The notes: generated from the sequence alone by a model not told the origin. Positions 7,809-60,565 are shown, numbered from the stretch's first letter. The stretch: DNA of 64,000 nucleotides from Gemmatimonadota bacterium (GCA_031402225.1 JANNSD010000050.1:8405-72404), one strand, 5' to 3'. A program made the numbers and translations.

Positions 7809-8259
7809 GCCGTCCGTCCTTCCGTTGGCCGGCGACCCCTGTCGCTGGTGCTTCGATCCGTGAACTACATCAAACCCGGCGTCCCCGGTTCCGGTTCCGG
7901 CCGGTGCCGGTGTGCACCGGCACCGGCGCGGTGCTGCGGCGCCCACGCGCGGCGAGTACCACAATGAGGGTCCCGAGGATCAGTATCAGTGCAGCCGACA
8001 TCGGTTCGTCCTGGTGTTGGTCTGCCCATCCGGTACGCATCACCCGAGCCAGAAGGTCCGCCGGCGCTGTCATGGGGCAGTCAAGGACTTGACCGCTCCA
8101 GGCCCAAGTGGCTCCCGGACAAGCACTAACGCGGCTCCTCAGGCGAGTGGCGTTCGCGCCTGGCTCGGCTGGGATCGGCGCACTGGGCGCCTCCAGCGCT
8201 GGTGCGCCGTTGCAGCGCGCGCCGTGGCGACCCATCTTCCACTCGACCGCCAGGGGTAC

Positions 8260-11187
<2,928 letters not shown>

Positions 11188-11844: not shown

Positions 11845-13646
11845 GCCGCCTCCCCGGTGGTGATCGGCACCTGCACCTCGACCCGCGCCCCGGCGCCGGG
11901 GCGTCCGTCGAAGCGGACACTGCCGCCAAGTGCCGCGATGCGTTCACGCATGCCGGTCAATCCCATGTGTCCCTCACGTTCGAGCAGCGCCGTATCGGTA
12001 GTATGCGGCCCGACACCATCATCGGCGACGACGAGCACCAGCGCGTGTTCCCGCACCGCAATCTGCACCGCTACCGCCCCGGCGTTGGCGTGGCGCACGA
12101 CGTTGGAGAGCGCCTCCTGCAGGGCACGGAAGAGCGCGAGCTCTGCGTCCTTCGAGAGGGCTGGCAGTCCCCGGGGCGCATCCAGCGTGATGTGAATGGC
12201 GCTCCGTTCGCTGAAGTCGGCCACGAGCGAACGCAGCGCCGGCAGCAGGCCCAGGTCGTCCAGCAACGAGGGACGCAGGTCGTTCACCACGCTGCGGATG
12301 CCGCGGATGCCCTTGTCGACCAGGCCGAGCAGGCGCTCCAATCGGGGCGCCGCGATATCCGGCACCTGACCCCGCAGGAGCTCGAGCTCCATCTTGACCG
12401 CGGAGAATACCTGCGCCGTCTCGTCGTGCAGCTCGCGGGACAGCCGGCGGCGCTCCTCTTCGTGCTGCTCCAGCATGCGGGCCGAGAGGCGGGCCAGTTC
12501 CACGGTGCGGGCCTGGAGCCGCTCGTGCAGGTCGGCGTTGGCGAGGGCCGCGCCGACCTGCCGCCCCAGCGCCTGCAGGAAATCATCGTCGAGCGCGGTG
12601 AAGGGATCGCGTGCGTCGCCCGTGAGGACGAGGGCACCGGACGGCTCGGTGCCGGTGAACACCGGTAGCACCGCCATGTAGGCGATCGCATCGCGCCCGC
12701 GCCCTCCCGGGATCAGCTGGCCGTCATCGGTCACCTGGGGCCGGCCGGTGCTCATCGCCGCCTGCAGCGCCGGGGCGGTGCCTGCCTCGGGTGGACGCCC
12801 CGTCCAGTCCGCGATCTGCCCGGCACCACGCTCGAAGCGGCCGGTCTCCCGCAGGTACAGCGCACTGCCGCGCACCGCCGGCAGGGTCAGCGGACGTGCC
12901 AGCAGGGCGGTGAGCACATCACTACGTCCACGTCGCTGCAGGTCACCAGAGAGATCGGTGAGGGCGCGAAGGCCGCGCCCGAGGTCGTCAAGCACGAGGA
13001 TCATGATGCCGGTGCCGACGGCCAGTGCGAAGGCGATGTCGAGGTAATACCCCCACGGCGCCCACGCGCCCCGCGCGCGGAGGAATGGATAGTCGAGATG
13101 GTGCAGGCTCCACAGGAGGAAGGCGCAGGCGAGGATGCCGGCGCCAGTGGAGCCGACCAGCTTCCAATAGCGGAAGAACACCCAGCCGGTCCAGAGCGTG
13201 GCGAGGCTCAGGAACAACACCGCCGGTCCCGCCGCGAGGAAAAAGTTGTCCATCTGGTAGATAGCGATGTATGCCCACAGAAGCGGGAAGAGCGCCGCCA
13301 GCAGGTAGGCGGGCCGCCAACGAACCTGGCGGGAAAAGACGAGTGCCGCCCACAGCAGCGAGAGCGCCGTCCAGCCGGTGATCACCTGGTGCCAGTAGAG
13401 CCAGGTCCAGTTGCGGGTGAGGAGGAATCCCATGATCGCGCCGAGGCGCAGCACGTACAGGCCCCACGCGGTCGCATACCAGGCGAAGTAGATCTTGCCG
13501 TAGCGCTGGTAGAGGAACGCACAGAGGAGGGCCAGGCAGCCGGTGATGGCGGCTTGGAGGATCGCCGCGTCGAGCTCGAGTGCGGTGGCCAGCGCGATGG
13601 GGGTTTGCACTGCCCAAATCAAGCGGCGCCATGCCGTTAGTTTCAA
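11841..13646 (-). CDS. Membrane sensor histidine kinase (multi-TM sensor, GAF-like, HisKA_3, HATPase_c)
   Basis: About 6-7 N-terminal TM helices. HisKA_3 H-box LSRELHDETAQVF and ATPase motifs (NVVRHANA, DDGVG, GLTGMRERIAALGG). The start codon at 13646 is TTG. Confidence 0.9.
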   Translation of the reverse strand: MKLTAWRRLIWAVQTPIALATALELDAAILQAAITGCLALLCAFLYQRYGKIYFAWYATAWGLYVLRLGAIMGFLLTRNWTWLYWHQVITGWTALSLLWAALVFSRQVRWRPAYLLAALFPLLWAYIAIYQMDNFFLAAGPAVLFLSLATLWTGWVFFRYWKLVGSTGAGILACAFLLWSLHHLDYPFLRARGAWAPWGYYLDIAFALAVGTGIMILVLDDLGRGLRALTDLSGDLQRRGRSDVLTALLARPLTLPAVRGSALYLRETGRFERGAGQIADWTGRPPEAGTAPALQAAMSTGRPQVTDDGQLIPGGRGRDAIAYMAVLPVFTGTEPSGALVLTGDARDPFTALDDDFLQALGRQVGAALANADLHERLQARTVELARLSARMLEQHEEERRRLSRELHDETAQVFSAVKMELELLRGQVPDIAAPRLERLLGLVDKGIRGIRSVVNDLRPSLLDDLGLLPALRSLVADFSERSAIHITLDAPRGLPALSKDAELALFRALQEALSNVVRHANAGAVAVQIAVREHALVLVVADDGVGPHTTDTALLEREGHMGLTGMRERIAALGGSVRFDGRPGAGARVEVQVPITTGEAA

Positions 13647-13680
13647 CTGGGTAGTTCACCGGATGCTCGAAGGGTCCTCG

Positions 13681-14811
13681 ATGCCAGTCAGTGTTCCCGA
13701 CCTGCCAGCAGTTGAGTTTCGCGGCGTCACCAAGCGCTATGGCTCGACGTCGGCGGTACGCGACCTGTCGTTTGCCGTCGCCCGGGGAGAGTTCTTTTCC
13801 CTCCTCGGTCCGTCGGGCTGCGGCAAGACGACGACGCTGCGCCTGCTGGCCGGGTTCGAGGCGGCAGACGAGGGGGAGATCCGCCTTTTTGGTGAGGTGG
13901 TGAACCATCGCCGGCCCTATGAACGCGATCTGGCCATGGTGTTCCAGAGCTACGCGCTCTTCCCCCATCTCTCCGTGGAGCGCAATGTGGCGTTCGGCCT
14001 GGAGCAGCGAAAGCGGCCGGCACGCGAAATTCGCGACCGGGTGCGCGCCGCGCTCGATCTGGTGCGGCTCGACCCCGACGTGTACGCGTCACGCCAGCCG
14101 TCCGAGCTGTCGGGTGGCCAGCGGCAGCGGGTGGCCCTCGCCCGGGCCCTGGTGCTCGAGCCCCGGGTCCTGCTGCTCGATGAACCGCTGGGTGCACTCG
14201 ACCTCAAGCTCCGGAAGGAAATGCAGGTCGAGTTGAAGGCGCTCAACCAGCAGCTCGGCGTGACGTTCATCCATGTTACGCACGACCAGGAAGAGGCGCT
14301 GGCCATGAGCGACCGGATTGCGGTCATGGACCAGTCCCAGCTCGCCCAGCTCGGCACCCCGGCCGAGATTTACGAGAATCCGCGCACGGCGTTTGTCGCC
14401 GACTTCATTGGGGAAGCGAATTTCCTGGAGGGAACAACGGCGGGGCGGCAGGCCGGCACGGCGGCAGGTGCATCCGGGTGGCTGATCGCTGGCGACGCGG
14501 GCGGCTTTCTCGTTCCGGAGCATCCGGCCATCGTCGAAGGCGGCCGTGTCCGCATTGCCGTCCGCCCCGAGTGGCTGGATCTGTGGCGACCGGACTCCCT
14601 GCCGGTCGGCGAGAACGGCCTGTCCGCGACCGTGCAGGACCTCCTCTACCTGGGCGAGACCATCCACGTGCGGGTGCTGCTCGCCGACGGGCGGGCCATG
14701 CTCATCGCGCTCCGCAACGAGGGCCAGCTGCTGAATCCGCTGCCGTGGAGCCGGGGTGATGCCTGCGTGGTGGGCTGGCGACCGGAAGACTGCCAGGTGC
14801 TGGAAGGGTGA
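13681..14811 (+). CDS. potA: Spermidine/putrescine ABC transporter ATP-binding protein
   Basis: GPSGCGKTT, LSGGQRQRVALARAL, LLLDEPLGALD and a C-terminal TOBE-like domain. ATG 13663 is an alternative start. The track start 13543 lies inside the divergent kinase gene. Confidence 0.9.
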   Translation: MPVSVPDLPAVEFRGVTKRYGSTSAVRDLSFAVARGEFFSLLGPSGCGKTTTLRLLAGFEAADEGEIRLFGEVVNHRRPYERDLAMVFQSYALFPHLSVERNVAFGLEQRKRPAREIRDRVRAALDLVRLDPDVYASRQPSELSGGQRQRVALARALVLEPRVLLLDEPLGALDLKLRKEMQVELKALNQQLGVTFIHVTHDQEEALAMSDRIAVMDQSQLAQLGTPAEIYENPRTAFVADFIGEANFLEGTTAGRQAGTAAGASGWLIAGDAGGFLVPEHPAIVEGGRVRIAVRPEWLDLWRPDSLPVGENGLSATVQDLLYLGETIHVRVLLADGRAMLIALRNEGQLLNPLPWSRGDACVVGWRPEDCQVLEG

Positions 14812-43301: not shown

Positions 43302-44321
43302 GTGACCGCGGGTCACGGCAACCTGTTCGAGGAGCAGGAGCGCAACCGGCGTCGCTCCTTCTGGCTCGTGACCATCTTCGTGCTGTTCTTCGGCTGGGTC
43401 GGCTTCGGCGGAGACCTGGCCCTCTGCATCCTCACGTTGACAGCCGAACCAGGCGCTTACCGGCATGTCGTCCCGTTCATCGGCGTGGTGGCGACGGTCG
43501 TTGCCGGGGGCATCGCCTGGTTCGCGTGGGAGAAGGGCGCCGACCGGGTGCTGTGGGCCACCGGCGCGTGGGAGGTCATCGAGCCGGCCACGCCGGAGCA
43601 GACGCAGTACGTCAACGTGGTGGAGGAGATGGCCATCGCCGCGGGCCAGCCGCGTCCCCGCATCTGGGTGGTGCCCGATCCCGATCCCAATGCGTTCGCG
43701 ACCGGCCGGGATCCGCAGCACGCGCACATCGCGGTGACGGAAGGCCTGCTCGCTCGGCTCAACCGGGAAGAACTGCAGGGTGTCGTGGCGCACGAGATGG
43801 CGCACATCGCCAACTGGGACACCCGCCTGATGACGCTGCTGGCCGCGATGCTGGGTGCGATCGCGCTGATGTCCGACGGGATGGGGCGGATGACGCGCGG
43901 TGGCGTCCGCGTCGGCGGGAGCGGCCTGCGCGGCGAGGGGAAGGGCAAGGGCAACCCGCTTGGGCTCGTGCTGTTGGTGCTCTGGGTCTTCTCCCTCCTC
44001 ATCGCTCCGGTGGTCTCGCGACTCCTCGCCATGGCGGTGAGCCGGAAGCGCGAGTTCCTGGCGGATGCCACGGGGTCGCAGTTCACCCGGAACCCGCTGG
44101 CCCTGGCATCGGCGCTGGAGAAGCTGGAGACGGAGCCCGCACCCACCCGGAGCATTACCCGGGGTGCGGCGCACCTCTGTATCGTGGATCCGGCGGAACG
44201 GAAGATGTCGGAACGGGGCGGTTTCGTGGGCGATGTCTTCGCCTCACATCCACCGATGCGGGAGCGGGTGGCGCGGCTGCGGGGCATGGGCTATCAGTCG
44301 TCGGTCGTCAGTCGTCAGTGA
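43302..44321 (+). CDS. M48-family (HtpX-like) zinc metalloprotease
   Basis: HEMAHIANWD (HExxH), a downstream EFLADATG, and 4 TM segments. It is paired with lemA, as is common. The last 8 codons (QSSVVSRQ) are encoded by the heptamer repeat array. Confidence 0.9.
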   Translation: MTAGHGNLFEEQERNRRRSFWLVTIFVLFFGWVGFGGDLALCILTLTAEPGAYRHVVPFIGVVATVVAGGIAWFAWEKGADRVLWATGAWEVIEPATPEQTQYVNVVEEMAIAAGQPRPRIWVVPDPDPNAFATGRDPQHAHIAVTEGLLARLNREELQGVVAHEMAHIANWDTRLMTLLAAMLGAIALMSDGMGRMTRGGVRVGGSGLRGEGKGKGNPLGLVLLVLWVFSLLIAPVVSRLLAMAVSRKREFLADATGSQFTRNPLALASALEKLETEPAPTRSITRGAAHLCIVDPAERKMSERGGFVGDVFASHPPMRERVARLRGMGYQSSVVSRQ

Positions 44322-44366
44322 GTCGGCGGTTCACTCATGACTCACGACTCGCGACTCACGACTCGC
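44295..44366. repeat. Inverted arrays of heptamer repeats (SAGTCGT x3-4 / GACTCRC x4) forming a hairpin between convergent genes
   Basis: The left arm is cagtcgt cggtcgt cagtcgt cagtgagtc, followed by a 14-nt spacer, and the right arm is gactcac gactcgc gactcac gactcgc. The arms are imperfect reverse complements. Both flanking genes end inside the arrays. Confidence 0.85.
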
Positions 44367-46328: not shown

Positions 46329-46363
46329 GCGTCCTCGAGGAGCGTTGTTTCTCCGTCTTCCGT

Positions 46364-47176
46364 CTAGCGTCTTCCGGTCAAGTACTCGTCGATGACAGGC
46401 TTGTGCTCGCTGTACTCGGGACGGTCGGCCCGGCCGATCTCCGCCTGGTAGTGGGCCATGAAATCCTTCCGGGCGGCTGCCGCGGTGGCAGCATCCCGTC
46501 GGCGATCGGCCACCTCGCCGCGGACGAGGTACCCGAACAGGTGATTCGAGTTCTGCGCCAGGATGGTGTCGGCGAGTGCCAGCGCCGCGGCATCCTGGCC
46601 TGACTCGGCGTAGAGCACGGCGGCATGGTAGCGAAGGTCGGCGGTCACCGAGTCCAGCATCCCGTACGCCAGGATGGCCATGGGCGTGAACTGCCGCGCC
46701 TGGGCGCTGTCTCCGGCGGCGGCGGCGCGCATCACGCGATCATAGAGCCGGTTGAACCGCTCCGCGGGCGACATGCTCGAGATGTCGGGCGGCGTGCCGG
46801 CCGGGCTCGTCGGCGCGTCACCGGCGTCTCCGCCCTGCGCTCCCGGCGCGGCATTGCCGACGTTCGGCATCCGGGCCACTTCCGGCGCGCTGTTGCGATT
46901 GATACCCAGGAACGCGATGTACGAGAGCCCGGCGATCACCAGGATGCCCGCGACGAGCCATGGCGTCCGGCTCTCGCGCGCCGGCGCTGGGGGACGGTCG
47001 GGGGCACCGCCGACCGCCACGCCACAGCGATGGCAGAATTTCGCAATGGGCGAGAGCCCGGCGCCGCACGCGGCACAGGTCCGCGGGCCGACAGCGGCTC
47101 CACAGCGATCACAGAATCGACCGGGAGCGTCGGTGCCGCAGACGGGGCAGGCGGGGACGGCTGGAGAGGCAGGCAC
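46364..47176 (-). CDS. Double zinc-ribbon, single-TM, TPR-like protein
   Basis: CPVCG..CDRCG and CAACG..CHRCG form a double zinc ribbon. One TM helix (PWLVAGILVIAGLSYIAFLGI) is followed by a helical repeat C-terminus. GTG 47176 is a guessed start, because the track N-terminus (to 47413) is not protein-like. Confidence 0.6.
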   Translation of the reverse strand: MPASPAVPACPVCGTDAPGRFCDRCGAAVGPRTCAACGAGLSPIAKFCHRCGVAVGGAPDRPPAPARESRTPWLVAGILVIAGLSYIAFLGINRNSAPEVARMPNVGNAAPGAQGGDAGDAPTSPAGTPPDISSMSPAERFNRLYDRVMRAAAAGDSAQARQFTPMAILAYGMLDSVTADLRYHAAVLYAESGQDAAALALADTILAQNSNHLFGYLVRGEVADRRRDAATAAAARKDFMAHYQAEIGRADRPEYSEHKPVIDEYLTGRR

Positions 47177-48988: not shown

Positions 48989-49786
48989 GTGCGACCCGCC
49001 GGCATTCTCTGCGACCTCGAAGGCACCCTCTATTCGGGTGACACGCCACTCCCCGGGGCGACGCGGCTGGTTCCCGCGCTCCGCGCGCAGGGTATCCCCT
49101 TCCGATTCGTCACCAACACCACCAGCCGGTCGCGCCGGCTGCTCGTGGCGCGCCTGGCGGCGATGGGCATCGCGGTCTCGATGGACGAGATCGTGAGTGC
49201 GCCGATTGCCGGCGCCTCGCTGGCGCGCGAACACGGGCATCGGATCGTCGCCCCGTTCCTTGCGGAGGCGGTGCTGGAAGACCTCGAGGGACTCGAGCTG
49301 TGTGGAGGAACCGTCGCGCGGGCGGGAGGCCGCCCGACCGCCATCATCTTCGGCGACCTCGGCGAGCACTGGAGCTACGGCCTGTTGCAGCAAGCATACG
49401 AGCACCTGCGGGACGGCGCCGAGTTCATCGCCTGCTCGTGCGACCGGGTCTATCGCAAGGCCGACCGGCTCGTGCTCGACGCCGGGCCGTTCGTCGCGGC
49501 GCTCGAGTACGCCAGTGGCCGCACGGCACAACTCGCGGGAAAGCCGGGTCCGGTCATCTATGACACGGCGATCCGCCAGCTCCAGCTGCCCGATGCGGTG
49601 CGCGCGCAGGTGGTGATGATCGGTGACGATATGCATTCCGACATTGCCGGCGCGCAGCAGGCGGGACTCGTTGCGTGGGCCGTCGAGACAGGCAAGTTCT
49701 CCGCCGCCGCCGCCGTCCGTGCAGGGATCGCCCCCGACCGCATCATTCCCGGGCTCGAGACGCTGCTGGCGGAACTAGGCGCGTGA
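48989..49786 (+). CDS. HAD-superfamily IIA hydrolase (NagD-like)
   Basis: ILCDLEGTLY (DxxGT-type nucleophile motif variant), FVTNTTSRSR, GKPGP, MIGDDMHSDIAGA. Confidence 0.85.
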   Translation: MRPAGILCDLEGTLYSGDTPLPGATRLVPALRAQGIPFRFVTNTTSRSRRLLVARLAAMGIAVSMDEIVSAPIAGASLAREHGHRIVAPFLAEAVLEDLEGLELCGGTVARAGGRPTAIIFGDLGEHWSYGLLQQAYEHLRDGAEFIACSCDRVYRKADRLVLDAGPFVAALEYASGRTAQLAGKPGPVIYDTAIRQLQLPDAVRAQVVMIGDDMHSDIAGAQQAGLVAWAVETGKFSAAAAVRAGIAPDRIIPGLETLLAELGA

Positions 49787-51354
49787 TCGCCCGCCCGGCG
49801 GGGCTCGTCGCCGCATTCCTGCTGCTGGCCGTGCCTCTCGCCGCGCAGGACGCTGAGCCGCCTGCGGGTGTACCCGTCGTGCAGTACCTCGACATCGTCC
49901 GGGAGGATATCGCCGACAGCAACGAGACCGGCTTTGCCGCAAAGGCGGCGAACGCGCTGCATGTCCGCACGCGCCAGCGCGTGGTGGAGCGCGAGGTGCT
50001 GCTCAAGCCGGGCATGCCATACGATTCGATCCTCGCGGCTGAAACCGCGCGGAACCTCCGGGCCCTCGGCATCTTCCGGGACGTCCTGGTGGACACGGTA
50101 CGGAGCGACAGCGGGCTCACCCTTCGCGTGGTGACGAAGGACGGCTGGAGCACCTTTCCGATCTTCAACATTACGACCGCGGCGGGACAGTCCGCGTTCG
50201 CCCTCGGGGCCGCAGAGGGGAACCTCCTCGGCCTGGCGGCCCTCGGGCTGATCCGCTACAGCAGCAATCCCGACCGCACCGCGTGGCTGTTTGCGTTCCG
50301 GCAGCCCCGCCTCTTTGCGGGGCGCGTCAATCTTGGACTTTCCGTTGAGGAGCGCTCCGATGGCCGCGCCATCGCCGGCCAGCTCGGCATGCCGTTCTAC
50401 TCCATTGCCAGTCGCTGGGCCCTGGGCGGTGACGCAACCTACTTCGACGGGGATGTCCTCGTGTTCGCCGACGGCGTCCTCACGCCGGACCAGACGCTGT
50501 CGCGCCAGTACACCCTCGTGCGCGTGGACGGAGCGAAGGCGCTCAAGGCGTCGCCCAGGGGATACGTGCGGGCCGGTGTCACCGCCCAGCTGGAATCGAA
50601 TTCATTCCTCCCGAGCCCCGTCACCGTGCCACGCATCGATACGACGCAGGTTGCCGTCGGTGCCTATGTCAACGTCCTCCGCGCGCGCTTCGCCCTCGTG
50701 CGCAACGTGCGCAGTTTCGGGAGGGAGGAAGACTTCGCCATCGGCCAGAACGTTCGCGTTGGACTGCTCGCCGCCCCCTCGGCGTTCGGCTATGCGGTGA
50801 ACGGCGTCGGCCTGCAGCTTGCCGCCTCGACCGGATTCCGCTTTCCGGGCGGGCTCGCGCAGCTGAGTGCTACGGCCAATGGTCTTGTCACCGGTTCGGG
50901 TGTCGACTCCGGGTCGGTCGTGCTCAAGGGAAACCTCGTCGTCCAGCCAGATACGAAGAACGCGATCATCGTCGGCGGCTTCGTGGGCCGGCAGAAGAAT
51001 CCGGTGCCCGGACGCCAGTTCGACCTGGGCCTGGTGTATGGACTACGGGCCTATCCGCTGCATGCGTTTGTGGGCGACCGGGGGTTCCTGGTCGCCGCGG
51101 AGTATCGCTGGACCTTCACGGAGAATTTCGGCGGCCTGCTTGGCCTCGCCCTCGGCACATTCGTGGACTACGGTGGTGCATGGTATGCCGGGGAGTCACC
51201 GCGCACCGGCACGGACCTGGGTGCCGGGCTGCGCTTCGGTCCGAGTCGCTCGGCCAGTCCGGTCCTGTTCCGGCTCGACGTGGCCTATCGCTTCGAGGCG
51301 GCGCCGTTCACGGCCGGGTGGTCGATCGTCTTCGGCGAGGGATTCACGTTCTAG
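49783..51354 (+). CDS. BamA/D15-like outer-membrane protein (POTRA + surface-antigen barrel)
   Basis: GTG 49783 overlaps the HAD stop. Signal peptide AAFLLLAVPLAAQD, a POTRA-like segment (VLLKPGMPYDSILAAETARNLRALGIFRDVLVD) and a C-terminal beta-barrel ending in FGEGFTF. Confidence 0.85.
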   Translation: MIARPAGLVAAFLLLAVPLAAQDAEPPAGVPVVQYLDIVREDIADSNETGFAAKAANALHVRTRQRVVEREVLLKPGMPYDSILAAETARNLRALGIFRDVLVDTVRSDSGLTLRVVTKDGWSTFPIFNITTAAGQSAFALGAAEGNLLGLAALGLIRYSSNPDRTAWLFAFRQPRLFAGRVNLGLSVEERSDGRAIAGQLGMPFYSIASRWALGGDATYFDGDVLVFADGVLTPDQTLSRQYTLVRVDGAKALKASPRGYVRAGVTAQLESNSFLPSPVTVPRIDTTQVAVGAYVNVLRARFALVRNVRSFGREEDFAIGQNVRVGLLAAPSAFGYAVNGVGLQLAASTGFRFPGGLAQLSATANGLVTGSGVDSGSVVLKGNLVVQPDTKNAIIVGGFVGRQKNPVPGRQFDLGLVYGLRAYPLHAFVGDRGFLVAAEYRWTFTENFGGLLGLALGTFVDYGGAWYAGESPRTGTDLGAGLRFGPSRSASPVLFRLDVAYRFEAAPFTAGWSIVFGEGFTF

Positions 51355-51424
51355 GACGTGAGGACGTGAAGCGTTCACGAGCTCGCCATGACATTAGATT
51401 GTGGAACCCCTTAACCTCAGGCCT

Positions 51425-52427: not shown

Positions 52428-52538
52428 GTTCGGCCGTATTGTATACTCAGTCTTCGGTTTTTGTTCGGTTTAATGCTGCCATCCGCGCACAGGCGGAATC
52501 CTTCGCTGTCTCCATAAGCCAATAAAAGACAATTACTT
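52428..52538 (+). promoter_or_regulatory. AT-rich promoter/operator region of the imuA-imuB-dnaE2 cassette
   Basis: GC content drops sharply here. TATACT (52442-52447) is -10-like. CTTC-N7-GTTC (52452-52466) and the duplicated TTCGGTTT are operator candidates. No experimental support. Confidence 0.3.
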
Positions 52539-53207
52539 ATGCAGATAGCTCAGCTTCGCTCCCGGCTCGAACAGGTTATCGCCCCGCCGCCGGTGGCGGC
52601 CGACGCCATCCCCACCGGATTCCAGGAACTCGATGAAGCGCTGGGCGGCGGAATTCCGCGCGGGCGGCTCACGGAGTTGATCGGCCCCCTCGGCGCGGGC
52701 ACGGCAACGCTGGTCCGCGGGCTGGTTGGCGCCGTGTTGACCCGGGGGCAGGGTGTCGCATGCATCGATGCCTCGCGCACCCTCGATCCGGCTGACTGGG
52801 CATTACTCGACTGTGCCTTCCTCCGTGTGGTGCGACCGCGCGATTCCGCGCGAGGGGCCTGGTGTGCCGATGTGCTGCTGCGCAGCGGGGCGTTCACGCT
52901 CGTGGTGCTCGACCATGCCCCGCCACTCACGCGGCAGGTGGCGCTTCGCCTTGTCGGTCTCGCGCGCGACCGGGACGCGGCGTTCGTCGTGGCAGGCGAG
53001 GGGTCGGTGTCACAGGTGGGCGGGGCGGTGCGGCTGGAGGTGAAACGCCGATGGGGTGGAGGCAGCCAGCGGCGGCTATCCGAGCTGACCGTTCTTCGCG
53101 GCGGGCTTCGTACCACCATTGAGGTTCCCAGTGTCATCCAGCATCCGCGTCGCCTGTGTGCGCATCCCGAAGTTCCCGATCGGCGCGGTGTGGCTGGAGG
53201 ACGGTAA
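52539..53207 (+). CDS. imuA: ImuA (SulA/RecA-like) component of the mutagenesis cassette
   Basis: GFQELDEALGGGIPRGRLTELIGPLGAGTATLV is typical of ImuA. Its position immediately upstream of imuB-dnaE2 supports the call. Confidence 0.8.
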   Translation: MQIAQLRSRLEQVIAPPPVAADAIPTGFQELDEALGGGIPRGRLTELIGPLGAGTATLVRGLVGAVLTRGQGVACIDASRTLDPADWALLDCAFLRVVRPRDSARGAWCADVLLRSGAFTLVVLDHAPPLTRQVALRLVGLARDRDAAFVVAGEGSVSQVGGAVRLEVKRRWGGGSQRRLSELTVLRGGLRTTIEVPSVIQHPRRLCAHPEVPDRRGVAGGR

Positions 53208-54618
53208 GGGGGTTCACTGGGACCAGCGCCCCCTGGCGCTCATCCGTGGCGATCGCGTGGCCCTCGCCACGACACAGGCCGCCTCACACGGCATCCGGCA
53301 CGGCATGTCCATCCCTGCGGCGCGAGCGATGTGCGCCGGGCTGGAGGTGCGGCCCTGGGACGACCGCGCGATCGGCCGGGCCATGCACCGGGTAACAGCC
53401 GCGTGCCTCGCCCTCAGCCCGCAGGTGACACCGGCGCGTCCAGGTTTCTGGTGGATCGGTGCGCATGGGCTCGAGGGTCATGGTGGCGAGGACAACCTCA
53501 TCCGATCGCTCCTCGCATGCGCCCGGCGCTGGCACCCTGGTGCCCGCGTGGCCGTGGCGTCGAGCTGCATCGCTGCCTCGGTGGCTACCTGGCTTCGCGG
53601 TACCGGCCGCCTCGTGCCGCGTGGCGAAGACCAGGCGCTGCTCGCCCAGGCGCCGCTCTCCCTCCTTCCCATGCACACCGAGTTGCGCGAAACCCTCGCG
53701 GCACTGGGCCTGGGGACGGCGGGGCAGCTCGCCGCCCTCGATCCCGGCGATGTCGAACAGCGCTTCGGTCCCGCCGGACTCGCGGCCTGGCGCCTGGCGC
53801 GGGGCGAGGACCAGCGGCGGCCCACCCTCACGCGTCCCGTGCCCGACGATACCGTCGCCATCGAGCTTCCAACGTCCGCCGAGACACGTGAGCCGGTGCT
53901 CTTCCTGGTGCGCGCGGCGCTGGGGCGGCTGATCACGCAGGTCGCGAGCGACGGGATGGCGGTGGCGGCGCTGGAAGTGGAACTGATGCTCGATGTGTCG
54001 CCGGCCCGGTCGGTAGCGCGACGCATGACCCTGGCATTCCCGCTCGCCCGCCTGGAACCGCTGTTCGAGCACTGCCGGGCGGTGCTCGAGGACTGGGCGC
54101 TCGAGGCGCCGGTGCTCGGCGTTGTCGTGCGCATCACCGAGCGCGCCAGGCCTGCCGCTGCGCAGGGCGACCTGCTGCGCACCGGCTGGCGTGATCCTGC
54201 CGCGGCGGAGGCGGCGTTCGCCCGCCTCCGCGCGGCGCTCGGTGCCGATGCCGTGGTGCGCCCTGCATCCCGCGATGGATTCGCACCTGAGCGACGTGGT
54301 GCCTGGGAGGAAGGGCGCGATCGGGAGGCGAAGTCACCTGCCGCCTTGCCGCCTTGTCATCCTGCCGCTCCTCATCCTGCCGCTCCTTTGCGCCTGCTCG
54401 AGCCACCGGAGCCGGTCGAGGTCGCGCCCGACACCAGCGCTTTCACCTGGCGCGGACGGCGCTGGCCCATCACCGAGCGGGGCAGCGTGGAGCGGCTCTC
54501 CGGCGACTGGTGGGCGTCCCCCTATGCCCGTGACTACTCCTCCTGGACCAGTGAGGGAACGGCGTTCGTGGTGTTCCTGAGCGGGGAGACGTGGAATGTC
54601 CACGGGTGGTATGACTGA
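53131..54618 (+). CDS. imuB: ImuB, Y-family DNA polymerase-like protein
   Basis: The N-terminus IRVACVRIPKFPIGAV and overall UmuC/DinB-like architecture, in the imuA/dnaE2 context. GTG 53131 (or TTG 53119) overlaps the imuA 3' end by about 77-89 nt. It contains one in-frame octamer module (AALPPCHPAAPHPAAP). Confidence 0.85.
   Translation: MSSSIRVACVRIPKFPIGAVWLEDGKGVHWDQRPLALIRGDRVALATTQAASHGIRHGMSIPAARAMCAGLEVRPWDDRAIGRAMHRVTAACLALSPQVTPARPGFWWIGAHGLEGHGGEDNLIRSLLACARRWHPGARVAVASSCIAASVATWLRGTGRLVPRGEDQALLAQAPLSLLPMHTELRETLAALGLGTAGQLAALDPGDVEQRFGPAGLAAWRLARGEDQRRPTLTRPVPDDTVAIELPTSAETREPVLFLVRAALGRLITQVASDGMAVAALEVELMLDVSPARSVARRMTLAFPLARLEPLFEHCRAVLEDWALEAPVLGVVVRITERARPAAAQGDLLRTGWRDPAAAEAAFARLRAALGADAVVRPASRDGFAPERRGAWEEGRDREAKSPAALPPCHPAAPHPAAPLRLLEPPEPVEVAPDTSAFTWRGRRWPITERGSVERLSGDWWASPYARDYSSWTSEGTAFVVFLSGETWNVHGWYD
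54338..54386 (+). repeat. Octamer-built repeat module, copy B1 (inside imuB)
   Basis: ctgccgcc ttgccgcc ttgtcatc ctgccgct, then cctcatc ctgccgct. Read in frame as PAALPPCHPAAPHPAAP. Confidence 0.9.
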
Positions 54619-57600
54619 CGCCGTCCAGCCATCCGATTACGTCGAGCTGCACTGCCACTCCTGCTTCTCGCTGCTCGACGGGGCGACCTCGCCCGAGGGG
54701 CTGGTCGATCGCGTCCACATGCTGGGCCAGCGCGCGCTGGCGCTCACCGACCATGCCGACCTGGGTGGTGCCGTACGGTTCTCCGAGGCAGGGCGCGCGC
54801 GGGGCGTGGAGACGATCGTCGGGGCCGAACTCGACATTTCCTTTCCTGCCGCCTTGCCGCCTTGTCATCCTACCGCCGTCGTCCTGCTCGCCGAGTCCAG
54901 CACCGGCTATGCGAACATTGCCACCCTTGTCACACGCGCGCGCATGGATTGCCCGCGGGGCGAGCCCGCCGTTCCGCTCGACCTGCTCGCGCGCCATGCC
55001 GATGGCGTCACCGCGCTCACTGGTGGCCCGCGAGGATGGCTGCCGTCACATCTCGCGGCCGGCAACGTGGAGGGTGCGCGCCATGCGGCGCGCGCGCTCC
55101 ACGATATCTACGGCGACCATCTCGTCATCGAGTGCTGGGATCACGGACTTCCCGAGGAAAAGGCCCTCGTTGCCCAGCTCATTCCGCTCGCCGCATGGCT
55201 CGGCGTGCCATGGGTCGTGGCGAATGACGTGCGCTACGCCCGCCCGCAGGATCGCCGGGTATACGACGTGCTCGCGGCGCTCAGGCACAAGAGGACCCTC
55301 GACCAGATGGGCACGCGCCTCCGTCCCAATGGCGAGTGGTACCTCAAGTCGGCAGCGCAGATGGCGCGCCGCTGGCGCCATGCCCCGGCAGGGGTGCGTG
55401 CCACCCGCGCCGTGGCAGAACGGTGTGCCTTCCGCCTCGAGCAGCTGCGCCCGACGCTGCCGGCGTTTGCCCTGCCGCCTGGTGTCGGGGAGGATGAGTA
55501 CCTGGAGCGGCTGGCCATGCAGGGCCTCGAGGAGCGCCTCTCTCACGACTCACGACCCACGACTCACGACTCGTCGGCCCATCGCACCCAGCTGGCCCAC
55601 GAGCTCACCATCATCGCGCGCCTGGGGCTCGCCGGCTTCTTCCTCATCGTCTGGGACATCGTGCGCTTCGCGCGGCGTAACGGCATCCTCTGCCAGGGGC
55701 GCGGCTCCGCCGCCAACTCCGTGGTCTGCTACTGCCTGGGCATTACTGCGGTCGACCCGGTGAGGATGAATCTTCTCTTCGAGCGGTTCCTGAGCGAGGA
55801 GCGCGCCGAGCCGCCCGATATCGACCTCGATATCGCGCATCGCGAACGGGAACGGGTGCTCCAGTACGTCTATGAGCGCTATGGGCGCGAGCATGCGGCG
55901 ATGGTGTGCGAGCAGATCAGCTGGCGGGGGCGCAGCGCCGTCCGCGACACGGCGCGCGTGCTCGGCTTCAGCGTGCAGCAGGCCGGGGCACTCGCGGCGT
56001 TCAGCGACCGGTTTTCCGCGAAGGCGACGGTCGACACATCCGTCTTCACCAAGGCCGGCCTCGACCCGGCCGACCCGCGTGTTGCCCTGCTCGCCGACCT
56101 GGTCGCGGGCCTGCACCAGTTGCCACGGCACCGCTCCATCCATGTCGGCGGCTTCGTCCTGACCCGTGAGCCGCTGTCGCGCATCGTGCCCATCGAGCCG
56201 GCGTCGATGCCGGGCCGCACGGTGATCCAGTGGGAAAAGGACGACCTCGGTCCCGTCGGCCTGGTGAAGATCGACCTGCTCGGGCTCGGCATGCTCACGC
56301 TGCTGCAGGATTGCCTGCTCTACATCAATCGCACGCGCGGGGTGTCGCTCGATCTCGGCACCATCCCGGTGGACGACCAGGCGGTGTACGACGACCTCTG
56401 CCGCGCCGATACCATCGGCCTCTTCCAGGTGGAGAGCCGCGCCCAGATGAACACCCTCCCGCGCCTCAAGCCGCGCGCGTTCTACGACCTCGTCGTCGAG
56501 GTGGCGCTCATCCGTCCCGGGCCCATCCAGGGAGACATGGTGCACCCGTTCCTCCGTCGCCGTGCGGGACTCGAGGAGGTCACCTATCCCCATCCCTCCC
56601 TCGAACCGGCCCTCAAGCGCACCCTTGGCATTCCGCTCTTCCAGGAGCAGGGTATGCAGGTCGCTATCGCAGCGGCAGGGTTCACGCCCGGTCAGGCCGA
56701 TGAGCTGCGCCGCGCCATGGGACACAAGCGTTCCCACGAGCGCATGGCCGGGATCGCCGACCAACTGGTGGAGGGGATGGCGAAGAACGGCATCGATGCC
56801 GACACGGCGCGACGGATCTACCAGCAGATCAGCGCCTTCGCCGACTACGGATTTCCCGAGAGCCACGCCGCGAGCTTCGCGCTGCTGGTGTATGCCTCGG
56901 CCTGGCTCCGGCACTACTACCAGCCCGAATACACGGCCGCGATCCTCAACGCGCAGCCGATGGGCTTCTATTCTCCCGGGACACTGGTGGAGGATGCCCG
57001 CCGTCACGGCGTAGAGGTGAGGCCGGTGGATGCGCTGCACAGCAGCTGGGACGCGAGCCTCGAGCGCCGTGACTCACGACTCACGACTCACGACTCTCCT
57101 GCCGTGCGACTCGGTTTCCGCTCCATCCGCGGACTCGGCTCTGCCGCACGCGAGAAGATCGAGCGCGCCCTCAATGAGCGGCCGTTCAGCACCGTAGCCG
57201 ATGTGGTGAGCCGCACTGGACTCGACCGCGGCGCGCTGCGCGCGCTCGCGGAAGCGGGAGCGCTCGACAGCCTGGTGCAGCATGAATCACCCGAGCGTCG
57301 CCGGCGCATGGCATTGTGGGAAGTGCTGCGCGCCGAGCGCGGGGTCGCTGGTCCTTTTGCCACCTTGCCGCCTTGCCGCCCTGCCGCCTTCCTGCCACCA
57401 ATGACGCCGTACGAACTGACCGAAGCGGATTATCGAATGACTGCCCTCTCACTCAATGGGCATCCGATGGCACATCTTCGGAAGGAAATGCGGCGCATCG
57501 GCGTTACGGCGGCGAATGACCTGCTTCCTCCTGCCGCCCTGCCGCCCTGTCATCCTGCCGCTCCCAGGGACGGAGCGACGGTTCTCGTCGCGGGGCTCGT

Positions 57601-57856
57601 CATCTGCCGCCAGCGCCCCGGTACCGCCAAGGGGTTTGTCTTCCTCACCCTCGAGGACGAAACCGGGCTGGTGAACGTCATCGTGACGCCAAAGCGCTTC
57701 GAGCAGCAGGCGCTGCTCATTGCGCGGAGCCCCTTGCTGCTGGTACGCGGGACCTTGCAGATCGAGGGGCGTGTGGTGAACGTGCGCGGGGAGGAGTTCC
57801 GCCTCCTCAACGCTCCCGTGGGCGCCGAGCATGCCCGCCGACACGATTTTCATTGA
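54596..57856 (+). CDS. dnaE2: Error-prone DNA polymerase III alpha subunit DnaE2 (ImuC)
   Basis: PHP domain YVELHCHSCFSLLDG, polymerase core (LVKIDLLGLGMLT, IALIRPGPIQGDMV, LFQEQ), an OB-fold C-terminus, and a position after imuB. It contains five in-frame short-repeat insertions. Confidence 0.95.
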   Translation: MSTGGMTDAVQPSDYVELHCHSCFSLLDGATSPEGLVDRVHMLGQRALALTDHADLGGAVRFSEAGRARGVETIVGAELDISFPAALPPCHPTAVVLLAESSTGYANIATLVTRARMDCPRGEPAVPLDLLARHADGVTALTGGPRGWLPSHLAAGNVEGARHAARALHDIYGDHLVIECWDHGLPEEKALVAQLIPLAAWLGVPWVVANDVRYARPQDRRVYDVLAALRHKRTLDQMGTRLRPNGEWYLKSAAQMARRWRHAPAGVRATRAVAERCAFRLEQLRPTLPAFALPPGVGEDEYLERLAMQGLEERLSHDSRPTTHDSSAHRTQLAHELTIIARLGLAGFFLIVWDIVRFARRNGILCQGRGSAANSVVCYCLGITAVDPVRMNLLFERFLSEERAEPPDIDLDIAHRERERVLQYVYERYGREHAAMVCEQISWRGRSAVRDTARVLGFSVQQAGALAAFSDRFSAKATVDTSVFTKAGLDPADPRVALLADLVAGLHQLPRHRSIHVGGFVLTREPLSRIVPIEPASMPGRTVIQWEKDDLGPVGLVKIDLLGLGMLTLLQDCLLYINRTRGVSLDLGTIPVDDQAVYDDLCRADTIGLFQVESRAQMNTLPRLKPRAFYDLVVEVALIRPGPIQGDMVHPFLRRRAGLEEVTYPHPSLEPALKRTLGIPLFQEQGMQVAIAAAGFTPGQADELRRAMGHKRSHERMAGIADQLVEGMAKNGIDADTARRIYQQISAFADYGFPESHAASFALLVYASAWLRHYYQPEYTAAILNAQPMGFYSPGTLVEDARRHGVEVRPVDALHSSWDASLERRDSRLTTHDSPAVRLGFRSIRGLGSAAREKIERALNERPFSTVADVVSRTGLDRGALRALAEAGALDSLVQHESPERRRRMALWEVLRAERGVAGPFATLPPCRPAAFLPPMTPYELTEADYRMTALSLNGHPMAHLRKEMRRIGVTAANDLLPPAALPPCHPAAPRDGATVLVAGLVICRQRPGTAKGFVFLTLEDETGLVNVIVTPKRFEQQALLIARSPLLLVRGTLQIEGRVVNVRGEEFRLLNAPVGAEHARRHDFH
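54846..54877 (+). repeat. Octamer-built repeat module, copy B2 (inside dnaE2)
   Basis: ctgccgcc ttgccgcc ttgtcatc ctaccgcc. It differs from B1 at 2 nt and is read as PAALPPCHPTA. Confidence 0.9.
55540..55574 (+). repeat. Heptamer array, copy A2 (inside dnaE2)
   Basis: ctctcac gactcac gacccac gactcac gactcgt, read in frame as SHDSRPTTHDSS. Confidence 0.9.
57071..57098 (+). repeat. Heptamer array, copy A3 (inside dnaE2)
   Basis: gactcac x3 then gactctc, read in frame as DSRLTTHDS. Confidence 0.9.
57357..57396 (+). repeat. Octamer array, copy B3 (inside dnaE2)
   Basis: ttgccacc ttgccgcc ttgccgcc ctgccgcc ttcctgcc, read as TLPPCRPAAFLP. Confidence 0.85.
57531..57562 (+). repeat. Octamer-built repeat module, copy B4 (inside dnaE2)
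   Basis: ctgccgcc ctgccgcc ctgtcatc ctgccgct. It differs from B1 at 2 nt and is read as AALPPCHPAAP. Confidence 0.9.

Positions 57857-60494: not shown

Positions 60495-60565
<71 letters not shown>

What the first reader, a model, noticed from the sequence alone, without database searches (positions are those of the whole stretch)
54338..57562. Near-identical 32-nt octamer-built module inserted in the same reading frame at three sites in imuB and dnaE2, plus a related octamer array
**The copies.**
- B1, 54338-54369: ctgccgcc ttgccgcc ttgtcatc ctgccgct.
- B2, 54846-54877: differs from B1 at 2 nt.
- B4, 57531-57562: differs from B1 at 2 nt.
- All three are in the same orientation and the same frame, giving AALPPCHP(A/T)A.
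- A five-unit array at 57357-57396 gives TLPPCRPAAFLP.

**Why this points to recent spread.** The sites are non-homologous positions of two different genes. By my knowledge of DnaE2/ImuB conservation, they correspond to variable loops. Nucleotide-level identity therefore points to recent insertion or gene conversion, not shared ancestry.

**Possible consequence.** Together with the two heptamer arrays, dnaE2 carries five such insertions. Unit lengths of 8 and 7 nt are not multiples of 3, so gain or loss of a single unit by slipped-strand mispairing would frameshift the error-prone polymerase genes. That would be a possible contingency (phase-variable) switch on the mutasome. This is speculative.

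**Precedent.** In-frame colonisation of ORFs by short repeats is known for Rickettsia palindromic elements. I do not know it for this module.
Basis: partly seen in the sequence, partly recalled or inferred. Interest (0 to 1): 0.7.

Follow-up and report, generated by a model that had tools for sequence, protein, structure and literature searches.

The report
Dispersed short repeats inside mutasome genes
Three near-identical 32-base stretches inside two DNA-damage polymerase genes of a soil Gemmatimonadales bacterium are copies of a lineage-wide family of tiny hairpin-forming repeats that have settled, in frame, in flexible protein loops; nothing suggests they act as an on/off switch.

Summary
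The 32-nt module occurs at 54338, 54846 and 57531 with 0, 2 and 2 mismatches (0 expected by chance). All three copies are in frame in imuB and dnaE2, next to one octamer array and two heptamer arrays.

The module is not specific to the mutasome. Its 21-nt core recurs in other Gemmatimonadales assemblies:
- at a gcvT 3' end and spacer;
- in a PotA-like ATPase and in a 519-aa protein, antisense and in frame;
- as one arm of strong intergenic hairpins.

Close relatives (82-91% identity) carry different repeat families, the opposite orientation, or full hairpins at the same ImuB and DnaE2 sites. One clean filled/empty pair shows an 81-nt hairpin inserted with no target duplication. All five DnaE2 sites are predicted coil loops. 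Only two reading frames are used. Arms inside ORFs have lost their TGA codons.

Best reading: a REPIN/RPE-like repeat family built from 7-8-nt tandem units, filtered by selection to tolerated in-frame loop positions.

The contingency-switch idea is not supported. Tracts are short and imperfect. Length differences between relatives are multiples of three. The only frameshifts found were homopolymer errors in a poor assembly.

Unexplained: these arrays are roughly ten-fold denser in imuA-imuB-dnaE2 than in flanking DNA, in the two lineages with long flanks.

The parts
52539..53207 (+). imuA-like (RecA-fold) gene, first gene of the cassette
   Evidence: Weak NCBIfam ImuA and RecA hits, 52-54 bits, below the curated cutoffs. 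88-92% identical orthologues sit at the same position in L004-L007, L025 and L026.
53119..54618 (+). imuB-like gene (Y-family polymerase-like), host of module copy 1
   Evidence: Weak Pol IV and REV1 similarity. Pfam IMS is recorded on orthologues. The gene overlaps dnaE2 by 23 nt.
54338..54369 (+). Module copy 1 (single arm of the octamer-type element), in frame in the ImuB linker
   Evidence: Orthologous copies are decaying in L005-L007 and reverse-complemented in L004. The copy has no fold of its own (z=+1.5).
54357..54387 (+). Perfect 15-nt in-frame tandem duplication (HPAAP x2) of the module's 3' end, absent from the aligned orthologues
   Evidence: Tandem Repeats Finder: period 15, 2.1 copies, 100% match. 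Absent from the four orthologous imuB loci aligned at nucleotide level.
54596..57856 (+). dnaE2 (error-prone DNA polymerase), host of five repeat-derived loop segments
   Evidence: NF004225, 1243 bits against a cutoff of 939. 7991 homologues found; the best matches carrying a source name are Gemmatimonadetes/Gemmatimonadaceae.
54846..54877 (+). Module copy 2, DnaE2 site S1 (aa 85-94), loop between two beta strands of the PHP domain
   Evidence: L004 has the orthologous copy. L005, L006, L026 and L030 have a full heptamer hairpin here, and L007 has only its right arm.
55542..55572 (+). Heptamer array (CTCACGA/GACTCAC, 4.4 units), DnaE2 site S2 (aa 317-327)
   Evidence: The site is empty in L004, L006 and L007. 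L026 has a GGGAAGA array there. L030 has an 81-nt hairpin there.
57071..57096 (+). Heptamer array (GACTCAC, 3.7 perfect units), DnaE2 site S3 (aa 824-835)
   Evidence: It is an insertion relative to Thermus Pol III alpha. pLDDT is below 50 at residues 827-831. L004 and L006 have reverse-complement octamers here.
57357..57396 (+). Octamer array (YTGCCGCC, about 4-5 units), DnaE2 site S4 (aa 923-935)
   Evidence: The same array is reverse-complemented in place in L030. pLDDT is below 50 at residues 918-929.
57531..57562 (+). Module copy 3, DnaE2 site S5 (aa 980-989); the family's 5' CTTCCTC extension starts near 57523
   Evidence: A near-identical orthologous copy is in L015, and decayed copies are in L005 and L006.
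14438..14468 (-). Decayed antisense octamer insert in a PotA-like ABC ATPase gene (13543-14811), read as GRQAGTAAG
   Evidence: Orthologues in L010, L014 and L020 carry the intact module antisense at this site (ERQDDKAAGRQE).
44294..44366 (.). Inverted pair of heptamer arrays between convergent htpX and response-regulator genes. The left arm supplies the last htpX codons and its TGA stop.
   Evidence: It folds weakly as DNA (z=-1.2), because the coding arm has TCA where the complement would have TGA.

Best explanation
**What it is.** The three 32-nt modules, the octamer array and the two heptamer arrays are copies of lineage-specific short interspersed repeats of Gemmatimonadales. In complete form these elements are 60-100-nt hairpins whose two arms are tandem arrays of 7- or 8-nt units.

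**Steps shown directly.**
- The elements occur between genes as strong stem-loops.
- They also enter coding sequence.
- They insert precisely, without a target-site duplication.
- One arm is often lost afterwards, leaving single-arm 'singlets' such as the window's copies.

**Steps inferred.**
- Selection removes copies that break a frame, introduce a stop or disturb a fold. What survives sits in flexible loops, in one of two tolerated frames, with lengths that are multiples of three and with TGA codons mutated away.
- In the proteins, the copies are passive Pro/Ala-rich or charged loop fillers.
- The spreading mechanism is a single-strand hairpin-based or template-switch/gene-conversion process, not a DDE transposase.
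For: **Dispersal.**
- The 21-22-nt core was found in 3 other Gemmatimonadales MAGs and 17 metagenome contigs. These fall into several other non-homologous contexts.
- Coding contexts: PotA-like ATPase, a 519-aa protein, the gcvT C-terminus, dnaE2 S5.
- Non-coding contexts: a hairpin next to a tRNA, and a site downstream of an ExbD-like gene.

**Hairpin form.** DNA folds give z=-7.35 for the L001 element, z=-7.38 for the L005 element in dnaE2 S1, and z=-5.06 for L003. The window copies give z>0 and have no partner arm within 300 nt.

**Insertion event.** L030 and L006 have identical flanks at S2 (aagcgt | ggcggtata). L030 has an 81-nt in-frame hairpin between them, with no duplication.

**Arm loss and inversion.**
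- At S1, L005 and L006 have a full hairpin and L007 has only the right arm.
- The imuB site is forward in the window and in L005-L007 but reverse-complement in L004.
- S4 is reverse-complement in L030.

**Selection filter.**
- Coding copies read only AALPPCHPAA or RQDDKAAGRQ.
- Arms inside ORFs are GTCAACG or GTCGTCA where the complement of the other arm would be GTGAACG or GTCGTGA, which contain TGA.
- Array-site length differences are multiples of three.

**Loops.** All five DnaE2 sites are coil between secondary-structure elements, with local pLDDT dips. They vary in length across 120 orthologues.

**Precedent.** Multicopy four-heptamer elements within and between genes in Geobacter metallireducens (PMC2700814). 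REPIN doublets and decaying singlets (PMC3116915). RPEs in coding regions (PMC1779305).
Against: - The source genome is not available to me. Copy number and the genic/intergenic ratio in this organism are therefore unknown.
- The collection scans required an exact 21-22-nt core, so they are biased towards well-conserved copies.
- Heptamer hairpins in one genome have different loops and different unit numbers (L030 S1 against S2). That is not what simple copy-paste of a master element predicts. It fits local array dynamics or fold-back synthesis better.
- At S1, S2 and S4 the loop is no longer than in distant relatives. The repeats replaced sequence there rather than simply adding to it.
- A passive-filler model does not by itself explain the roughly ten-fold enrichment in imuA-imuB-dnaE2, seen in two separate lineages with different unit families.
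- No transposase was identified.
Confidence: 0.7

Rival explanations
1. Contingency (phase-variable) switch. Slipped-strand gain or loss of a 7- or 8-nt unit frameshifts imuB or dnaE2, turning the mutasome on and off in a subpopulation.
For: - Unit lengths are not multiples of three, so a one-unit change would frameshift.
- Slippage-type events do occur: a perfect 15-nt duplication at 54357-54387, and 1-3 copies of a 30-nt supra-unit in L009 and L023.
- Unit numbers differ between relatives at the S6 site.
Against: - Tracts are short and imperfect: 2-4.4 units, and the module has only two identical adjacent units. They lie mid-gene and near the 3' end.
- Every array-site length difference between relatives preserves the frame.
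- All nine complete members listed for the P0003 cluster are 1146 aa.
- The frameshift near the S2 array in L025 is a 1-nt deletion in a G run, in a contig whose other genes are also split. The other truncated cluster members break away from any array.
- The same repeats sit in a PotA-like ATPase and at a gcvT end, where a switch makes little sense.
Confidence: 0.05
2. No mobile element. Arrays arise and turn over in place by slippage and intramolecular template switching at fragile hairpin sites. The shared 32-nt module spreads only by microhomology-seeded ectopic gene conversion between GC-rich Ala/Pro-coding stretches.
For: - The same site holds different unit families in close relatives, both in genes and between genes.
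- Hairpin loops and unit numbers are idiosyncratic.
- Arrays are reverse-complemented in place.
- At S1, S2 and S4 the repeats replaced sequence without net length gain. S4 overlaps a conserved AAxLPxM motif.
- There is no target-site duplication.
- Window copies are within 0-2 nt of copies in other assemblies, while orthologous copies in L005-L007 have decayed.
Against: - A complete 81-nt hairpin appears between identical flanks that show no prior similarity to it.
- The irregular unit TGTCATC is conserved across unrelated loci and assemblies. That needs copying of a defined sequence.
- This rival differs from the main explanation only in the spreading mechanism.
Confidence: 0.25
3. The inserts are selected, functional parts of the mutasome. 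They could act as protein linkers or interaction sites, or as RNA/DNA signals that tune expression of an SOS operon.
For: - 7-8-nt arrays are enriched in imuA-imuB-dnaE2 in the two lineages with long flanks, with different unit families (p=3e-4 for the window, 6e-3 for L028). L027, on a 9-kb contig, shows the same trend but is not significant (p=0.10).
- Among 13 syntenic genes, only ImuB, DnaE2 and the next gene show indels, at comparable substitution divergence.
- Window copies are close to the family consensus.
Against: - Content, orientation and even presence at each site vary among close relatives, so no specific sequence is conserved at a site.
- The window's DnaE2 lacks the whole 50-110-aa S6 insert that its relatives carry.
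- The same elements occur in unrelated genes and in spacers.
- There is no Rfam match.
Confidence: 0.1
4. Ancestral low-complexity linkers that look alike only because of GC-rich codon usage.
For: - CTGCCGCC-like octamers are common in this 68% G+C sequence: 7 forward and 9 reverse outside the operon.
- Part of S4 aligns with a conserved motif.
Against: - No shuffle reproduces the 32-mer.
- The irregular TGTCATC unit recurs at unrelated loci in both orientations.
- Distant orthologues have unrelated loop sequences.
Confidence: 0.02

Closest known systems
Rickettsia palindromic elements (RPEs)
   Same: Interspersed palindromic repeats found both between genes and in frame inside protein-coding genes. 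Families proliferate in particular lineages, and some inserts are shared by whole clades (PMC1779305).
   Different: RPEs are 100-150 bp and belong to an AT-rich alphaproteobacterial parasite. The elements here are 30-100 nt and GC-rich. Their arms are tandem 7-8-nt units, and they are often reduced to one arm. No sequence relationship is expected, and none was tested.
REP / REPIN elements with RAYT transposases
   Same: Short hairpin-forming doublets of inverted repeats. Single copies behave as decaying remnants. The lack of a target-site duplication is what single-strand Y1 transposition would give (that property of Y1 enzymes is from my own knowledge). Elements sit at gene ends like terminators (PMC3116915, PMC3337134).
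   Different: REPs are overwhelmingly extragenic: 14 of 1,067 16-mers overlap genes in Pseudomonas fluorescens SBW25 (PMC3116915). Here many copies are coding. Arms are tandem arrays, not a unique palindromic core. No GTAG or CGTC tag is evident. No RAYT gene could be looked for.
Multicopy tandem heptanucleotide/octanucleotide elements of Geobacter metallireducens
   Same: [quoted passage not shown]
   Different: Different phylum and different units. The Geobacter elements were read as regulatory RNAs or binding sites. No in-frame loop analysis and no bias towards particular genes was reported in the passages I read.
Heptameric simple-sequence repeats of Xanthomonas and Nostoc (GGGNATC; cyanobacterial STRR)
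   Same: Genome-wide arrays of 7-nt units with a preferred number of about four units, often near gene ends (PMC4692102).
   Different: [quoted passage not shown] Here arrays pair into hairpins and are frequent in particular genes.
Simple-sequence contingency loci (for example Haemophilus and Neisseria phase-variable genes)
   Same: The repeat unit is not a multiple of three and lies inside an ORF.
   Different: From my own knowledge, contingency loci have long homogeneous tracts, usually near the 5' end or in the promoter, with unit-number polymorphism among close isolates. None of this is seen here.

Membership tests
Interspersed palindromic repeats that invade ORFs (RPE-like kind) | Many copies at non-homologous loci | tested here: met
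   Three copies in the window. Several further contexts in 3 MAGs and 17 metagenome contigs.
Interspersed palindromic repeats that invade ORFs (RPE-like kind) | Copies inside coding sequence keep the reading frame open | tested here: met
   All coding copies are in frame, in one of two frames. The 81-nt insert in L030 is in frame.
Interspersed palindromic repeats that invade ORFs (RPE-like kind) | The element is palindromic and forms a hairpin | tested here: inconclusive
   Complete elements in relatives fold strongly (z=-5 to -7.4). The window's three copies are single arms with no fold and no partner arm.
Interspersed palindromic repeats that invade ORFs (RPE-like kind) | Inserts lie in loops that do not disturb the fold | tested here: met
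   In the AlphaFold2 model all five DnaE2 sites are coil with pLDDT dips. They are length-variable across 120 orthologues. This rests on a prediction, not a solved structure.
Rickettsia palindromic elements proper | Sequence homology to RPE families; 100-150 bp | not tested
   Different phylum, size and composition. I do not file the elements as RPEs.
REP/REPIN-RAYT system | Essentially extragenic placement | tested here: not met
   All three window copies and most of the contexts recovered are coding.
REP/REPIN-RAYT system | Inverted doublets forming hairpins, with singlets as remnants | tested here: met
   L001, L003, L005, L006 and L030 have hairpins. L007 and the window have single arms.
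REP/REPIN-RAYT system | A cognate RAYT (Y1 transposase) gene flanked by the repeats | not testable with these tools
   The source genome is not available. No PF01797 appears among the precomputed Pfam hits of the fetched loci.
REP/REPIN-RAYT system | Conserved GTAG or CGTC tag at one end | tested here: inconclusive
   Flanks of aligned copies show CTTCCTC or TCAC at the 5' side, with no consistent tetranucleotide tag.
DDE-type MITE | Target-site duplication flanking the insert | tested here: not met
   The L030/L006 filled/empty pair has identical flanks and no duplication of 2 nt or more.
Simple-sequence contingency locus | Long homogeneous repeat tract | tested here: not met
   2.2-4.4 units at 75-100% match.
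Simple-sequence contingency locus | Unit-number variants among close relatives that switch the frame | tested here: not met
   Array-site length differences preserve the frame. Cluster members have equal length. The L025 frameshift is a homopolymer error.
Multicopy tandem heptamer/octamer elements (Geobacter-type, STRR-type) | About four tandem units of 7-8 nt, dispersed within and between genes | tested here: met
   Compared with PMC2700814.
imuA-imuB-dnaE2 mutasome cassette (host genes) | DnaE2 passes the curated family threshold | tested here: met
   NF004225, 1243 bits against 939.
imuA-imuB-dnaE2 mutasome cassette (host genes) | ImuA and ImuB identity | tested here: inconclusive
   ImuA scores 51.9 bits against a cutoff of 150. 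ImuB has only weak Pol IV and REV1 similarity. The gene order, the overlaps and the conserved synteny fit the cassette.

The most novel reading that the evidence does not exclude
The SOS mutasome operon itself is a preferred sink or birthplace for these tandem-unit hairpin repeats across Gemmatimonadales. Different unit families pile up in imuA, imuB and dnaE2 in separate lineages. Equally divergent neighbouring genes have no indels.

This would point to a mechanistic link. For example, the repeats could be scars of slippage, fold-back or template-switch synthesis acting on the operon while it is strongly transcribed during DNA damage. Alternatively, there could be selection for rapid diversification of mutasome surface loops.
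Probability: 0.12. Interest if true: 0.75.

Novelty: new variant of a known kind. Interest (0 to 1): 0.45.

Why it matters
- It documents, in a little-studied soil phylum, a family of very small repeats that behave like REPINs or Rickettsia palindromic elements but are built from 7-8-nt tandem units.
- It shows step by step how such DNA becomes protein sequence: precise insertion, arm loss, purging of stop codons, and frame filtering.
- It warns annotators that odd Pro/Ala-rich or charged peptides in Gemmatimonadales proteins, and length variation of DnaE2 from 1071 to 1382 aa, are repeat-derived.
- The unexplained concentration in the error-prone polymerase operon is a concrete question that complete genomes could settle.

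Tried and rejected
- **Chi- or KOPS-like skewed octamer.** CTGCCGCC occurs 7 times forward and 9 times reverse outside the operon and is not over-represented. Rejected.
- **Known RNA family.** Rfam at gathering thresholds finds only a TPP riboswitch and a tRNA elsewhere in the window.
- **Hidden partner arms** that would make the window copies hairpins. None within 300 nt, and the copies do not fold.
- **Frameshifted dnaE2 alleles as evidence of phase variation.**
  - The L025 break is a G-homopolymer deletion in an error-rich long-read contig.
  - The truncated proteins P0140 and P0142 break at non-repeat positions.
- **A link to the GTCATCCTGAGCG-type repeat** that I recalled from other soil bacteria. 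No match in any fetched locus.
- **Further diverged module copies in the window.** An nhmmer profile found nothing significant beyond the known sites.
- **Literature on such repeats in Gemmatimonadota.** Two full-text searches found none.
- **Gene calls.** Genes in loci without precomputed calls come from my own GC3-based ORF filter. The 'edge' and 'intergenic' labels are therefore approximate.

Full report
**1. Observation**

The 32-nt module is at 54338-54369, 54846-54877 and 57531-57562 with 0, 2 and 2 mismatches. No match occurred in 100 dinucleotide-preserving shuffles.

- The first copy lies in ORF 53119-54618.
- The other two lie in ORF 54596-57856.
- All three read AALPPCHP(A/T)A.

Tandem Repeats Finder confirms three arrays:
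- an octamer array at 57357-57390;
- heptamer arrays at 55542-55572 and 57071-57096.

It also shows a perfect 15-nt in-frame duplication at 54357-54387.

The large ORF is DnaE2: NCBIfam NF004225, 1243 bits against a cutoff of 939. The two upstream ORFs are ImuB-like and ImuA-like by weak similarity, gene order and synteny.

The organism is a Gemmatimonadales bacterium.

**2. The copies are insertions in variable loops**

I aligned 120 DnaE2 orthologues.

- The five repeat-derived segments are S1 (aa 85-94), S2 (317-327), S3 (824-835), S4 (923-935) and S5 (980-989).
- All five fall in length-variable stretches.
- Relatives at <=77% identity have unrelated sequence at S1, S2, S3 and S5.
- At S4 only the C-terminal AAxLPxM is conserved.

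An AlphaFold2 model (64-sequence alignment, mean pLDDT 73) places all five sites in coil between secondary-structure elements, with local confidence dips. S3 is a gap relative to Thermus Pol III alpha.

The ImuB copy lies in a variable linker between PERRGxWE and LRLLxPPE.

**3. The module is a dispersed repeat, not a mutasome feature**

The exact core was found in three other Gemmatimonadales MAGs and in 17 metagenome contigs. These fall into the following contexts:

- **gcvT end and spacer.** The module covers the 3' end of gcvT and the spacer before a mogA-like gene. Read antisense, it supplies KKAAG and the TGA stop. A 30-nt supra-unit is present in one to three copies here.
- **A 519-aa protein.** Antisense, read as ERQDDKAAGRQE.
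- **A PotA-like ABC ATPase.** Same antisense frame.
- **Downstream of an ExbD-like gene.**
- **dnaE2 S5** in a 91%-identical relative, L015.
- **One arm of an imperfect palindrome next to a tRNA** in L001. RNA fold -84 kcal/mol; DNA fold z=-7.35.

The PotA-like gene is the orthologue of window gene 13543-14811. That gene carries a decayed antisense octamer insert at the same place, 14438-14468. The family therefore also touches a non-mutasome gene in this window.

Coding copies use only two frames: sense AALPPCHPAA and antisense RQDDKAAGRQ. One antisense frame contains TGA. The unused open frames would give hydrophobic or Cys/Arg-rich peptides.

**4. Dynamics at orthologous sites**

I made codon-level alignments of seven imuB-dnaE2 loci: the window, L004-L007, L026 and L030.

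- **S1.** The window and L004 have the octamer module. L005, L006, L026 and L030 have a full hairpin of GTCAACG/CGTTCAC heptamers (z=-7.38). L007 has only the right arm.
- **S2.** The window and L005 have GACTCAC heptamers. L026 has GGGAAGA heptamers. L004, L006 and L007 have nothing. L030 has an 81-nt hairpin.
- **S3.** The window and L005 have GACTCAC heptamers. L004 and L006 have reverse-complement octamers. L030 has a heptamer hairpin.
- **S4.** The octamer array is reverse-complemented in place in L030.
- **ImuB site.** The module is forward in the window and in L005-L007, where it is decaying. It is reverse-complement in L004.

L030 against L006 at S2 is a clean filled/empty pair. The flanks are identical (aagcgt | ggcggtata), there is no target-site duplication, and the insert is 27 codons.

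Arms that lie inside ORFs differ from the complement of their partner arm by one G-to-C change per unit, which removes TGA:
- GTCAACG instead of GTGAACG;
- GTCGTCA instead of GTCGTGA.

At 44294-44366 the last unit keeps TGA, and it serves as the htpX stop codon.

Because 7 and 8 are coprime with 3, three units pass through all three frames. Any stop in a unit must therefore be purged. This also explains why GACTCAC arrays appear only in the stop-free orientation in dnaE2.

**5. Age**

Orthologous copies in 82-91%-identical relatives show that the imuB, S1, S4 and S5 insertions are not very recent.

Turnover is nevertheless fast. Members of single 90% clusters differ wholly at S2 or S5: P0010 against P0153, and P0005 against P0137.

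The window copies are within 0-2 nt of copies at unrelated loci in other assemblies, while the orthologous copies in L005-L007 have decayed. This hints at homogenisation or re-insertion. The collection scans, however, were biased towards intact cores.

**6. The contingency-switch idea**

- Tracts are short and imperfect.
- Every array-site length difference between relatives keeps the frame.
- All nine complete members listed for the 17-member P0003 cluster are 1146 aa.
- The split dnaE2 in L025 is caused by a 1-nt deletion in a G run. Other single-base indels occur in the same gene, and neighbouring genes on the contig are also fragmented.
- Other truncated cluster members break away from any array.

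I find no support for a switch. Population sequencing would be needed to exclude rare variants.

**7. An unexplained enrichment**

| Locus | Period-7/8 arrays in imuA-imuB-dnaE2 | Arrays in the rest | Binomial p |
|---|---|---|---|
| Window | 6 in 5.3 kb | about 7 in 58.7 kb | 3e-4 |
| L028 (64% identical DnaE2, TGGGCAGA/GCCCAGCC units) | 5 in 6.1 kb | 1 in 17.4 kb | 6e-3 |
| L027 (9-kb contig) | 11 in 5.4 kb | 3 in 3.9 kb | 0.10 (not significant) |

In L027, dnaE2 and imuB carry yet other families, including GTGAAGG/CTTCACC and TCCAGGCG.

Thirteen genes are syntenic between the window and L005-L007. Of these, only ImuB, DnaE2 and the next gene (PAP2) show more than two gap positions, with PAP2 reaching 9 only against L005. 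Neighbours of equal or lower amino-acid identity show 0-2.

Tolerance of a rarely expressed, loop-rich, non-essential polymerase is the simplest reading. It is an inference, not a demonstration.

**8. Comparison with known systems**

- **Closest in behaviour.** REPINs, which are hairpin doublets with decaying singlets (PMC3116915), and Rickettsia palindromic elements, which occur in coding regions (PMC1779305).
- **Closest in build.** The multicopy four-heptamer and octamer elements of Geobacter metallireducens, reported within and between genes (PMC2700814), and the heptamer repeats of Xanthomonas and Nostoc (PMC4692102).
- **Differences.** The arms are tandem 7-8-nt arrays. Several unit families coexist and replace one another at the same sites. 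Many copies are coding. No transposase is known.

I found no paper describing such repeats in Gemmatimonadota. That is an absence within the searched library only.

**9. Verdict**

- right that these are spread repeat copies in loops;
- overstated on recency;
- unsupported on phase variation.

This is a new variant of a known kind of element. Interest is moderate, raised somewhat by the mutasome-specific enrichment.

Noticed in passing
window 52452-52469: CTTCGGTTTTTGTTCGGT lies about 70 nt upstream of imuA. It is a direct repeat resembling the GTTC-N7-GTTC LexA box of Alphaproteobacteria (resemblance recalled from my own knowledge). It is conserved in the four orthologous loci aligned, is unique in the window, and could be the SOS operator of the cassette.
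   Followed up: partly
window 44294-44366: An inverted pair of heptamer arrays lies between the convergent htpX and response-regulator genes. The left arm encodes the last htpX residues. Its final unit provides the TGA stop, and the earlier units have TCA instead.
   Followed up: partly
window 14438-14468: A PotA-like ABC ATPase (gene 13543-14811) carries a decayed antisense octamer insert (GRQAGTAAG). Orthologues in L010, L014 and L020 carry the intact module at the same place.
   Followed up: yes
window 46352-46376; L005 1647-1673; L006 1888-1945: The spacer upstream of the VitK2_biosynth (MqnA-like) gene holds a TCCGTCT array in the window, a GTTCACC array in L005 and a full GTGAACG hairpin in L006. 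The same intergenic site holds a different unit family in each.
   Followed up: partly
window about 56020-56030 (DnaE2 aa 479-480): The window's DnaE2 lacks the 50-110-aa insert (ALRGRAVADAYTQDNPECT...HAEQDHVERRNPVTSLLGSTEA) that all its close relatives carry. In L006 and L026 that insert itself contains antisense octamer arrays of varying length.
   Followed up: partly
window 51330-51410; L005 6640-6740: A conserved spacer element after gene 49675-51354 has AGGACGTG/GACGTGAA octamer units and a small hairpin. It is a further unit family of the same kind.
   Followed up: no
L016 8866-8886 (also L012, L018): The N-terminus of GcvT (MTHDPRPTQ) is encoded by three perfect GACCCAC heptamers (GTGGGTC on the locus + strand). 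The same gene's C-terminus and stop codon come from the octamer module.
   Followed up: partly
window 8242-8342 and 60495-60565: A TPP riboswitch (66.6 bits) lies upstream of gene 8292-10073. A tRNA gene was also found. Both are unrelated to the finding.
   Followed up: no
L015 against window 57440-57530: L015 is 91% identical to the window overall. It switches to an L005-like sequence for about 70 nt just upstream of the S5 module, while the S4 array and the S5 module themselves are nearly identical. This may be a recombination mosaic with breakpoints at the repeats.
   Followed up: no
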